Shown piece by piece: positions 36,142-36,884 of a DNA stretch of 64,000 nucleotides (the first letter of the stretch is position 1; every line of letters starts with the position of its first letter). A program made the translations under genes and the position numbers. Source of the DNA: an uncultured delta proteobacterium (GTDB lineage: Bacteria > Desulfobacterota > BSN033 > UBA1163); NCBI GenBank assembly GCA_963820625.1, contig CAWGAV010000017.1:32888-96887 (forward strand), given 5' to 3'. Under the pieces are notes generated by a model. It did not search any database. It was given only the letters and a program-made list of their open reading frames with translations, and had not been told where the DNA came from.

Positions 36142-36215
36142 CTCATCATTCCATTTTTCCATTATTCCAGAGGGGTGAAGTCACACAATTGGCTATGGGA
36201 GGGGAACAGAGATAG

Positions 36216-36884
36216 AAAAGAAATCTGGAGCAGGCAGAGAGAAGAATTGGGCTATTTGGAGGGACCTTCAACCCCGTCCATCTGGGTCACCTCCGGGGGG
36301 GGGAAGAAATTCGAGAGGCTTTCAACCTCGAGGAGGTCCTCTTCATCCCTTCCTCCATTCCACCCCATAAGATGACAGAGAAGGTCATCGAGGCAAAGCA
36401 TCGGCTCGAAATGGTGAGGGTGGCCACCTCAAACAACCCCCATTTTTCTACCAGCGACATTGAACTCTCAAGACCTGGAAAATCTTACTCCATCGACACC
36501 ATCCGATATTTTCGGGAGAGCCACCAGGATGCCCTTTTCTTCATCCTGGGTGGGGATGCTTTTGTGGAGATCGAGACATGGAGGGAATTTCAAAATCTCT
36601 TTTCTCATTGCCACTTTATTGTGATGACCCGACCGGGATCTCAAAAAAATACATTATCCTCCCAACTCCCAAAGACCTTGATCCCAAGTTTTCGATATGA
36701 CCCTGAAGAGAAGGTCTGGATCCACCTCTCAGGCCACCGGCTCTATTTCAAAGAAATTTCGTTCCTCGATATCTCTTCTACAAAGGTCCGGGAGCTAATC
36801 GAAAAGGGGGAGTCGGCGAGGTATCTGATCCCGACCGAAGTGGAGGTTTATATTCAACAAAACGGGCTCTATAGGAAGAGTTGA
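36216..36884 (+). CDS. nadD: Nicotinate-nucleotide adenylyltransferase; the reading frame is open from 36216 but has no ATG/GTG/TTG before 36372
   Basis: The frame reads ...[49 protein letters not shown].... It has the HxGH motif and then continues into ORF 36372..36884. The only upstream in-frame ATG (36195) is followed by a TAG at 36213-36215. Confidence 0.6.
   Translation, partial: [222 protein letters not shown]

What the first reader, a model, noticed from the sequence alone, without database searches (positions are those of the whole stretch)
36142..36380. nadD lacks a usable canonical start: ATG at 36195 is followed after six codons by in-frame TAG, then the NadD frame ([12 protein letters not shown]) runs on uninterrupted
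The frame opening at 36216 encodes [53 protein letters not shown].... It carries the catalytic HxGH motif and joins ORF 36372..36884 without a stop.

There is no in-frame ATG, GTG or TTG between the TAG at 36213-36215 and 36372. The only upstream in-frame ATG (36195, MGGEQR*) is terminated by that TAG. The ORF-track gene starting at 36372 would therefore lack the nucleotide-binding N-terminus.

nadD is normally essential. The candidate explanations are:
- non-canonical initiation at CTG 36225 or ATT 36246
- TAG read-through
- a recent nonsense mutation
- a sequencing error

A G9 homopolymer at 36295-36303 lies inside the same region and is frame-neutral as written, but it is an error-prone site.
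Basis: seen in the sequence. Interest (0 to 1): 0.55.

Follow-up and report, generated by a model that had tools for sequence, protein, structure and literature searches.

The report
nadD starts at ATA/ATT codon
This NAD-synthesis gene has no normal start codon because its whole bacterial lineage appears to start it at a rare ATA/ATT codon behind a strong ribosome-binding site, and in this copy one extra base puts that start out of frame, which is either a local sequence error or a strain-specific defect.

Summary
ATG 36195 runs into TAG 36213-15. The NadD frame is then open to 36884, with no ATG, GTG or TTG before 36372.

- **Relatives:** in 16 distinct related nadD 5' ends a strong Shine-Dalgarno sequence is followed, 6-8 nt after the best-pairing 9-nt stretch, by an in-frame ATA or ATT. 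These include 8 independent assemblies of the same species (98-99% identical).
- **No canonical start there either:** several relatives have an in-frame stop just upstream of that codon and no canonical start at all.
- **Gene callers:** they truncate the protein (170 or 211 aa) or over-extend it (up to 282 aa). Two GenBank MAG annotations already start it at ATT.

In the window the homologous site is GGGAGGGG 36197-204, a 7-nt spacer, then ATA 36212-14. The "TAG" is the TA of that ATA plus the next G, within the invariant AGATAGAAAAG. It falls in the NadD frame only because the leader is 34 nt here and 33 nt in the same-cassette relatives. ATG 36195 is not conserved.

The extra base lies in a 240-nt strain-specific recombinant tract (36021-36260). 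That tract also carries a +1 base that removes the proA stop. I cannot tell whether the frameshift is real or a local error; read pile-ups would decide.

This is a new member of a known kind (conserved AUA/AUU starts) and moderately interesting.

The parts
34774..36141 (+). proA (glutamate-5-semialdehyde dehydrogenase), 455 aa here with a 34-aa C-terminal read-on into the intergenic element. All relatives are 422 aa.
   Evidence: ORF list; Pfam Aldedh; 422-aa homologues and the unique 455-aa form
36021..36260 (.). Strain-specific divergent tract (cassette). Flanks are about 98-99% identical to four independent assemblies, but this tract is a different allele. It spans the proA end, the intergenic hairpin, the nadD Shine-Dalgarno site and start, and the first core codons.
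   Evidence: blastn; mismatch positions 36021, 36024, 36030 and 36245, 36252, 36257, 36260
36038..36038 (+). Extra T relative to same-cassette relatives (CGAG-T-GATAAGAG against GAG-GATAAGAG). It shifts the ancestral proA stop (GGA TAA) out of frame.
   Evidence: alignment A2
36066..36169 (.). Intergenic imperfect hairpin element with TGGAATA-type repeat arms (36066-87 and 36148-69). It belongs to a family dispersed in the genome.
   Evidence: fold of 36058-36175 gives dG -37.3 kcal/mol, z -4.6
36189..36215 (+). Fortuitous mini-ORF in the 5' UTR: TTG 36189 / ATG 36195 ... TAG 36213-15. It is not conserved: ATG is ATT in L010 and there is no start in L034, L035 or L036.
36197..36204 (+). Shine-Dalgarno sequence GGGAGGGG, 7 nt upstream of ATA 36212.
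   Evidence: direct reading; homologous Shine-Dalgarno sites in 16 lineages
36212..36214 (+). ATA, homologue of the conserved non-canonical start codon (ATA/ATT) of nadD in this clade. Here it is one base out of frame with the NadD core.
   Evidence: AGATAGAAAAG invariant in A2; tables
36215..36245 (+). N-terminal leader. ATA to the Ile codon ATT 36246 is 34 nt here, against 33 nt in same-cassette relatives and 27 or 30 nt in others. MAFFT places the extra base at G 36233/36234 (GCAGGCAGAG against GCA-TCAGAG), but the exact position is not determinable.
36216..36884 (+). NadD core reading frame, 222 codons after the TAG, with HxGH at 36258-36293, ISSTxxR at 36771-36791 and stop TGA 36882-84.
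36295..36303 (+). G9 homopolymer. It is frame-neutral and identical in independent strain-level assemblies.
36372..36884 (+). The truncated 170-aa ORF that gene callers report, here and on 7 other contigs.
37014..37379 (+). rsfS, the conserved downstream neighbour. Local gene order is obg-proB-proA-nadD-rsfS.

Best explanation
The nadD of this uncultured lineage is translated from a non-canonical AUA or AUU start codon. The lineage's GenBank MAG relatives are labelled Desulfobacterales, Thermodesulfobacteriota or Deltaproteobacteria.

**Proposed mechanism.**
- The start codon lies about 7-9 nt downstream of a strong GGAGG-type Shine-Dalgarno core and 13-15 codons before the GGTFNP motif.
- By analogy with known AUU/AUA starts, this should give low, IF3-sensitive expression of NadD. 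This step is inferred, not shown.

**In this window.**
- The homologous site is Shine-Dalgarno 36197-36204 plus ATA 36212-36214.
- The 'in-frame TAG' is not a mutation. It is the TA of that ATA plus the first G of the next codon, within the conserved AGATAGAAAAG.
- ATG 36195 is an unconserved triplet in the 5' UTR.
- The TAG lies in the NadD frame only because the leader between ATA and the core is 34 nt here and 33 nt in the nearest relatives.
- As written, the gene is therefore frameshifted by +1 between its start codon and its catalytic domain.

**Error or real.** The extra base sits in a 240-nt strain-specific recombinant tract that also carries a +1 base removing the proA stop. I rate a local consensus error as slightly more likely (about 55%) than a genuine strain-specific lesion (about 45%).
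For: **Shown: the frame and family.** No canonical start lies between TAG 36213-15 and 36372. The N-terminus is required for a full NadD match.

**Shown: same species.** Eight independent assemblies with 98-99% identical NadD carry GGGAG-agttgagaa-ATT AAA AAA GAA TCC ACA GGC AAA AGG ATT GGG TTA TTC. An in-frame TGA lies two codons before the ATT and there is no canonical start. All were called as 170 aa.

**Shown: other lineages.**
- The 16 distinct 5' ends are L001, L004/5 type, L007, L008, L010, L011, L013, L015, L018, L034, L035, L036, L037, L040, L041 and L042.
- In each, the strongest anti-SD pairing (dG -7.4 to -11.9) is followed 6-8 nt later by an in-frame ATA or ATT. No canonical codon sits in that 6-8 nt window in any frame; the only ones near the SD (TTG in L004/5, L011 and L037) are out of frame and 0-1 nt from it.
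- L018 reads TAAGGAGG-cccagat-ATA, with the in-frame stop overlapping the Shine-Dalgarno sequence. ATA is the only plausible near-cognate codon there.

**Shown: frame and position.**
- The distance from ATA/ATT to the core is always a multiple of 3 in relatives (27, 30 or 33 nt) and 34 nt only in the window.
- L017 has ATG at the homologous position.
- Among 119 homologue clusters, long-called proteins have Ile at the expected start position (-13, or -15 to -16 in those with a longer leader) after residues encoded by the SD-like stretch. Twenty-four clusters are called only from LFGG or MGLFGG.

**Shown: annotation.** GenBank MAG annotations already use ATT starts (L040 and L042).

**Shown: alignment.** AGATAGAAAAG is invariant. 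The window has single extra bases at 36038 and at 36233/34.

**Precedent.** Conserved AUA/AUU starts with strong or extended Shine-Dalgarno sites give about 10% of AUG output in S. aureus infC, ccpN, cvfC1 and citZ (PMC13009471).
Against: - No experimental initiation data exist for any member, so the ATA/ATT start is inferred from comparison only.
- The lineages are related, so the 16 cases are not independent. Only two or three independent leader-length changes (all multiples of 3) support the frame constraint.
- Some members (L008, L013, L015, L034) have an in-frame ATG or TTG 6-7 codons upstream of the ATA/ATT, without their own Shine-Dalgarno site, that could be used instead.
- In the window the proposed start is out of frame, so the model does not by itself yield a functional NadD here.
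- The contig is otherwise accurate: there are no coding indels against 4 assemblies over 19 kb, and the G9 run is correct. This argues against a random sequencing error.
Confidence: 0.7

Rival explanations
1. The extra base is genuine. This strain's nadD is a crippled or dead allele created in a recently recombined 240-nt tract. The cell would survive on trace NadD or on another NMN/NaMN adenylyltransferase encoded elsewhere in the genome.
For: - The contig has no coding indels against four strain-level assemblies over 27508-46877, and the G9 run is correct.
- Mosaic divergent tracts exist elsewhere, for example 26645-27265 at 88-94% identity, so recombination is real in this population.
- A chimeric join cannot explain the shift, because both ATA and the IGLFG codons lie inside the tract.
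- Another conserved gene in the window carries a CAG-to-TAG nonsense change.
Against: - nadD is normally essential (established knowledge).
- Eight assemblies of the same species keep an in-frame ATT start.
- Two frame-breaking +1 bases within 200 nt of one unique tract look like a local quality problem.
- The allele is seen on this one contig only.
Confidence: 0.3
2. The sequence is right and NadD is made from a weak near-cognate start in the NadD frame downstream of the TAG: ATT 36246 (giving MGLFGGTF...) or CTG 36225.
For: - The GenBank MAG annotation of L042 uses exactly the ATT of RIGLF as the start, giving MGLFGG.
- Six homologue clusters are called from this position.
- GGAG lies at 36227-30.
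Against: - That codon is ATC, GTT, GTC or ATA in relatives, so it is not conserved as a start.
- The spacing from GGAG to ATT is 15 nt, and from the main Shine-Dalgarno site to CTG is 20 nt.
- The start would truncate the first beta-strand.
Confidence: 0.1
3. Amber read-through. Translation starts at TTG 36189 or ATG 36195 and a suppressor tRNA or leaky termination reads TAG 36213-15, giving full-length NadD.
For: - An SD-like GAGGGGTGA (36170-78, dG -11) lies 10 nt before TTG 36189.
- A second in-frame TAG in the window replaces an invariant Gln in a DUF2914-family gene.
Against: - TAG ends 8 of 43 long ORFs, with short or tandem-stop extensions.
- No tRNA is encoded in the window.
- The mini-ORF and its start are not conserved.
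- The TAG is explained by the conserved ATA-GAA.
- CAG to TAG is the commonest route to an amber nonsense mutation.
Confidence: 0.04
4. Programmed +1 ribosomal frameshifting between ATA 36212 and ATT 36246.
For: - The required shift is +1.
- A strong Shine-Dalgarno sequence precedes the region, as it does in prfB.
Against: - The ATA frame has no stop or hungry codon and no recognisable slippery site: ATA GAA AAG AAA TCT GGA GCA GGC AGA GAG AAG AAT (my inspection).
- No relative needs a shift.
Confidence: 0.02
5. The ATA/ATT is only an internal Ile codon or an untranslated base triplet, and the clade starts nadD somewhere else. Candidates are the upstream ATG/TTG seen in some members, or an unknown mechanism.
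For: - L008, L013, L015 and L034 have an in-frame ATG or TTG 6-7 codons upstream.
- There is no experimental evidence either way.
Against: - In-frame stops lie 1-4 codons upstream of the ATA/ATT in L004/5, L011, L018, L040 and L042.
- The upstream ATG/TTG lack Shine-Dalgarno sites, and the SD-like stretch would then lie inside the coding sequence.
- The codon is invariant Ile while its neighbours vary.
Confidence: 0.1

Closest known systems
Conserved non-canonical AUU/AUA start codons with strong Shine-Dalgarno sites (E. coli infC and pcnB AUU; S. aureus infC AUA, ccpN AUA, cvfC1 AUU, citZ AUA)
   Same: - A near-cognate AUA/AUU sits at normal spacing behind a strong Shine-Dalgarno site.
- It is conserved across relatives, with AUG at the homologous position in some.
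- The expected effect is reduced, IF3-sensitive initiation (PMC13009471; infC and pcnB from established knowledge).
   Different: - The gene is nadD, for which my paper search found no report of a non-canonical start.
- The lineage is uncultured and nothing has been measured.
- In this particular copy the codon is one base out of frame.
NadD, nicotinate-nucleotide adenylyltransferase (NCBIfam NF000840 / TIGR00482; Pfam PF01467)
   Same: - Full-length equivalog match once the N-terminus is included.
- HxGH and ISSTxxR motifs are present.
- Local gene order is proB-proA-nadD-rsfS.
   Different: There is no canonical start codon. The ORF that gene callers report (170 aa) lacks the first ~50 model positions and falls below the NF000840 cut-off.
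prfB-type programmed +1 frameshifting
   Same: A +1 shift would be needed shortly after a Shine-Dalgarno-like sequence.
   Different: There is no in-frame stop or slippery CUU-U type site, and relatives need no shift. I do not consider it a member.

Membership tests
NadD (NaMN adenylyltransferase) | Full-length match to the nadD equivalog HMMs above the curated cut-off | tested here: met
   - The repaired 223-aa protein scores 216.8 bits against a cut-off of 150 (NF000840), and covers TIGR00482 positions 1-194 of 194.
- The 170-aa call scores 147.2 bits, below that cut-off.
NadD (NaMN adenylyltransferase) | Nucleotidyltransferase (H/T)xGH motif and C-terminal ISSTxxR motif | tested here: met
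   [12 protein letters not shown] at 36258-36293 and ISSTKVR at 36771-36791
NadD (NaMN adenylyltransferase) | Enzymatic activity on NaMN / essentiality | not testable with these tools
   Sequence only
Genes with a conserved non-canonical (AUA/AUU) start codon | No in-frame ATG/GTG/TTG between the upstream in-frame stop and the indispensable N-terminal motif | tested here: met
   Met in the window and in L004/5 (8 assemblies), L007, L010, L018, L040 and L042
Genes with a conserved non-canonical (AUA/AUU) start codon | Shine-Dalgarno sequence at functional spacing upstream of the near-cognate codon | tested here: met
   - Window: GGGAGGGG, 7 nt, then ATA.
- 16 lineages: the best anti-SD duplex (dG -7.4 to -11.9) is followed 6-8 nt later by ATA/ATT.
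- About one third of the window's genes use a Shine-Dalgarno site of 5 nt or more, against a 9.6% background.
Genes with a conserved non-canonical (AUA/AUU) start codon | Conservation of the near-cognate codon across relatives, with AUG at the homologous site in some | tested here: met
   - ATA or ATT in 16 lineages.
- ATG in L017.
- Invariant Ile in over-extended protein calls.
Genes with a conserved non-canonical (AUA/AUU) start codon | The near-cognate codon is in frame with the downstream ORF | tested here: not met
   Met in all relatives (27, 30 or 33 nt to the Ile codon). In the window itself the distance is 34 nt.
Genes with a conserved non-canonical (AUA/AUU) start codon | Direct evidence of initiation (ribosome profiling, N-terminal peptide, reporter) | not testable with these tools
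   Uncultured lineage; no data available
Amber (TAG) recoding or suppression | TAG is depleted as a stop or systematically read through; a suppressor or Pyl tRNA is present | tested here: not met
   - TAG ends 8 of 43 long ORFs, with short extensions or tandem TAGs.
- No tRNA is encoded in the window.
- The whole genome is not available.
Programmed +1 frameshift (prfB-like) | Slippery site with an in-frame stop or hungry codon, conserved in relatives | tested here: not met
   There is no stop or slippery site in the ATA frame over 36212-36247, and relatives are in frame.
Known cis-regulatory RNA (Rfam) | Match to an Rfam family in the proA-nadD spacer | tested here: not met
   Only chance-level hits, with E above 1

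The most novel reading that the evidence does not exclude
The extra base is real and this strain still makes NadD by recoding. One route is amber read-through of TAG 36213-15 from the SD-led TTG 36189 / ATG 36195. The other is a +1 shift from ATA 36212. A second TAG replacing an invariant Gln in a DUF2914-family gene of the same window would then hint at an amber-suppressing tRNA in a free-living sediment bacterium. Independently of that, nadD would be a clade-wide example of an essential cofactor gene throttled by an IF3-sensitive AUA/AUU start.
Probability: 0.05. Interest if true: 0.7.

Novelty: new member of a known kind. Interest (0 to 1): 0.4.

Why it matters
**Annotation.** Every automatic caller mis-annotates this essential gene across a whole uncultured clade. 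Calls are 170 or 211 aa truncations lacking the catalytic motif, or extensions of up to 282 aa. This can make MAGs look NAD-auxotrophic or produce false pseudogene calls.

**Biology.** It adds nadD to the short list of genes with a conserved AUA/AUU start behind a strong Shine-Dalgarno site. That suggests deliberate low, IF3-sensitive expression of an NAD-biosynthesis enzyme, which is testable with reporters.

**This contig.** It flags a 240-nt tract, with two frame-breaking bases, that should be checked against reads before calling proA extended or nadD broken.

Tried and rejected
- **TAG reassignment:** rejected. TAG ends 8 of 43 long ORFs and their extensions are short or hit tandem stops.
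- **Suppressor tRNA in the window:** none found.
- **Riboswitch or known RNA in the spacer:** none. The only Rfam hit in the window is a cobalamin riboswitch elsewhere.
- **Conserved regulatory uORF ending on the start (ATAG/ATAA overlap):** seen in the window, L010 and L018, but there is no start or no ORF in L034, L035 and L036, so it is not conserved.
- **Promoter or terminator scan of the spacer:** nothing between proA and nadD.
- **G9 run as the culprit:** rejected. It lies downstream of the catalytic motif and is identical in other assemblies.
- **Chimeric assembly as the cause of the frameshift:** rejected. ATA and the IGLFG codons both lie inside the divergent tract.
- **Independent copies of the window's allele:**
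  - Exact look-ups of the 455-aa ProA and of the 66-aa frame-B ORF found nothing.
  - The cluster table shows ProA-455 on one 98,863-bp contig only.
- **+1 slippery site:** inspected, none found.
- **Hecht et al. 2017 (initiation from all 64 codons):** not held in the paper library.
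Full report
**1. The observation**

Reading the window confirms every sequence statement.
- ATG 36195 is followed by GGA GGG GAA CAG AGA and then TAG 36213-15.
- From 36216 the frame reads [26 protein letters not shown]... 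and stays open to TGA 36882-84.
- The first in-frame ATG, GTG or TTG is ATG 36372.
- The HxGH motif is at 36258-36293, the G9 run at 36295-36303 and the ISSTxxR motif at 36771-36791.

The N-terminus matters for family membership.
- Pfam CTP_transf_like covers profile positions 1-132 only if the N-terminus is included. The 36372 ORF covers 42-132.
- The 170-aa ORF scores 147.2 bits on NCBIfam NF000840 (cut-off 150). A one-base-repaired 223-aa protein scores 216.8 bits, and TIGR00482 then matches 1-194 of 194.

The gene order is obg, proB, proA, nadD, rsfS, a dksA-like gene and a lapB-like gene.

**2. TAG is an ordinary stop here**

- TAG ends 8 of 43 long ORFs. Their downstream in-frame extensions are short or hit tandem TAGs.
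- No tRNA gene is present in the window.
- No Rfam family matches the proA-nadD spacer.

**3. Relatives show that the lack of a canonical start is the rule**

*Same species.*
- The window's flanks are about 98-99% identical, without coding indels, to four independent metagenome contigs over 27508-36037 and 36242-46877.
- Eight assemblies from eight samples encode a 98-99% identical NadD: L004, L005/L030, L006/L028, L027, L029, L031, L032 and L033.
- All eight read ...CAGGGAGAGTTGAGAA ATT AAA AAA GAA TCC ACA GGC AAA AGG ATT GGG TTA TTC GGC GGG ACC.
- An in-frame TGA lies two codons upstream of the first ATT, and no ATG, GTG or TTG follows before the catalytic motif.
- Every gene caller produced the truncated 170-aa protein.

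*More distant relatives (65-85% identity).* Each row shows the Shine-Dalgarno (SD) sequence, the spacer in lower case, and the start codon.

| Locus | SD, spacer, start | Note |
|---|---|---|
| L018 | TAAGGAGG-cccagat-ATA | The in-frame TAA overlaps the SD |
| L010 | GGAGGGGAG-cacag-ATA | |
| L007, L035, L036, L041 | GGGGAGGG-aagtaRag-ATA | |
| L034 | AAGGAGA-gcagag-ATA | |
| L037-39 | CAGGAGGA-ttgggtc-ATA | |
| L042 | GGGGAGGA-ttgagaa-ATA | TGA two codons upstream |
| L040 | AAGGGGGGT-taggac-ATT | TAG two codons upstream |
| L008 | AAGGAGGA-taaaaag-ATT | |
| L013 | GAGGGGGA-tttaaca-ATA | |
| L015 | AAGGGGGA-ctcagca-ATT | |
| L001 | GCAGGAGA-tttcgat-ATT | |

*Supporting measures.*
- An unbiased scan took the strongest anti-SD duplex in the 90 nt upstream of the motif. 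In 16 distinct sequences an in-frame ATA or ATT lies 6-8 nt after it. No canonical codon sits in that 6-8 nt window in any frame; the only ones near the SD (TTG in L004/5, L011 and L037) are out of frame and 0-1 nt from it.
- The distance from this codon to the Ile of RIGLF is 27, 30 or 33 nt in every relative.
- L017 has ATG at the homologous position.
- At the protein level, 119 homologue clusters were sorted by how they were called.
  - 24 are called only from LFGG, MFGG or MGLFGG.
  - About 10 start with M at -13.
  - About 30 start with M at -17.
  - Proteins over-extended into the spacer carry an invariant Ile at -13, or at -15 to -16 where the leader is longer, after residues encoded by the purine-rich SD (…KEDKK-I-KKE…, …GEDSK-I-GKE…, …EGREVK-I-EKG…).
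- Two GenBank MAG annotations already use ATT starts. L040's protein MKKEAVDK… begins at ATT. L042's MGLFGG… begins at the ATT of RIGLF.
- The organism does use Shine-Dalgarno sites. About one third of first starts in the window have a match of 5 nt or more, against a 9.6% background.

**4. What the window's ATG…TAG really is**

- The window's spacer belongs to the same cassette type as L010, L034, L007 and L036.
- In their alignment the block AGATAGAAAAG is invariant. It contains the ATA start and the codons GAA AAG.
- In the window this gives ATA 36212-14, preceded by GGGAGGGG 36197-204 and the 7-nt spacer AACAGAG.
- ATG 36195 is ATT in L010 and absent in L007, L035 and L036. The mini-ORF is therefore fortuitous.
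- The TAG lies in the NadD frame only because the window has 34 nt between ATA and ATT 36246 where the same-cassette relatives have 33.
- MAFFT places the extra base at GCAGGCAGAG (36230-39) against GCA-TCAGAG. An extra A in AAGAATT would fit equally well.
- As written, initiation at ATA gives a 52-codon out-of-frame peptide ending at TAA 36368-70, just before ATG 36372.

**5. The extra base lies in a strain-specific tract**

- Against the strain-level contigs, mismatches cluster at 36021, 36024 and 36030 on the left and at 36245, 36252, 36257 and 36260 on the right. Between them the sequence is a different allele.
- The tract holds the last codons of proA, a hairpin element, the nadD SD and start, and the IGLFG codons.
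  - The hairpin arms are 36066-87 and 36148-69.
  - Its fold gives dG -37.3 kcal/mol with z -4.6.
- It also has an extra T at 36038 (CGAG-T-GATAAGAG against GAG-GATAAGAG). This moves the ancestral GGA TAA stop out of frame and adds 34 residues to ProA.
- ProA is 455 aa here and 422 aa everywhere else. The 455-aa form is on record for one 98,863-bp NCBI/ENA contig only.
- A chimeric join cannot explain the nadD shift, because both ATA and the IGLFG codons are inside the tract.

*Arguments for a real change.*
- The contig shows no coding indels over 19 kb against four assemblies.
- The G9 run is correct.
- Other mosaic tracts exist, for example 26645-27265 at 88-94% identity.

*Arguments for a local error.*
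- Two frame-breaking +1 bases fall within 200 nt of the only stretch that has no strain-level comparator.
- They affect two housekeeping genes, and the allele is seen once.

I cannot decide between these and rate error about 55% and real about 45%. Read pile-ups would settle it.

**6. Mechanism**

*Shown.*
- The comparative anatomy: SD, spacing, ATA/ATT, preserved frame, upstream in-frame stops, and ATG at the homologous site in L017.

*Inferred.*
- Initiator tRNA starts at AUA or AUU with reduced, IF3-sensitive efficiency, keeping NadD low.
- The precedent is the Ribo-Ret study of S. aureus. There, conserved AUA/AUU starts of infC, ccpN, cvfC1 and citZ all have strong or extended SD motifs and give roughly 10% of AUG reporter output (PMC13009471).
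- E. coli infC and pcnB (AUU) are further precedents from established knowledge and are cited in that paper's reference list.
- A paper search found no report of a non-canonical nadD start.

**7. Rivals for the window's copy**

- **Genuine crippled allele:** probability about 0.3.
- **Weak initiation at ATT 36246 or CTG 36225:** about 0.1. That Ile codon is not conserved as ATT, and the SD spacing is 15-20 nt.
- **Amber read-through from TTG 36189 / ATG 36195:** about 0.04. An SD-like GAGGGGTGA lies 10 nt before the TTG, and a second in-frame TAG exists in the window. However, TAG is a normal stop and the mini-ORF is not conserved.
- **Programmed +1 frameshift:** about 0.02. There is no slippery site or stop, and relatives need none.

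**8. Verdict**

- The finding is a new member of a known kind: a conserved AUA/AUU start, here in nadD across an uncultured clade.
- A single unresolved base separates this copy from a normal member.
- It matters mainly for annotation and as a testable case of translational throttling of NAD synthesis.

Noticed in passing
window 3461-3997 (- strand), TAG at 3746-3748: A DUF2914-family secreted protein gene is split by an in-frame TAG. More than 100 homologues are single proteins of about 150-250 aa (mostly 171-174). In the ten homologues aligned, all have Gln at that position (CAG to TAG). It is either a nonsense mutation or a base error, and it is the only other disrupted conserved gene I found in the window.
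   Followed up: yes
window 36038 (proA end, 34774-36141): A single extra T relative to same-cassette relatives removes the proA stop and adds a 34-aa tail read from the intergenic hairpin element. All other ProA homologues are 422 aa.
   Followed up: yes
window 36066-36169; 30003-30103; 12720-12850; also L005, L008, L011-L013, L018, L037 spacers: Intergenic regions carry long imperfect hairpins whose arms are short tandem repeats (types TGGAATA, CCAAATGTCAAA and GTTCGGAG). Different types occupy the same proA-nadD spacer in closely related strains, and both main types recur elsewhere in this window. This looks like a dispersed REP- or MITE-like family, or gene conversion between copies.
   Followed up: partly
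window 26645-27265: Another tract is only 88-94% identical to the strain-level contigs whose flanks are about 99% identical. It covers small ORFs, including a DUF2283-like one in L043. This indicates a mosaic, recombining population.
   Followed up: no
window 22822-23056 (- strand): A cobalamin riboswitch (RF00174, 91 bits) lies upstream of the minus-strand genes that begin near 22054.
   Followed up: no
window 36368-36374: The out-of-frame ORF opened by ATA 36212 ends at TAA 36368-70, one base before ATG 36372 (TAAGATG). Termination-reinitiation could therefore yield the catalytically dead 170-aa fragment if the frameshift is real.
   Followed up: no
L040 (MGQP01000134.1) and L042 (JBEKUZ010000036.1): The GenBank annotations of these MAGs start nadD at ATT codons, but at two different positions: the SD-directed one in L040 and the Ile of RIGLF in L042. 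The family is therefore annotated inconsistently.
   Followed up: partly
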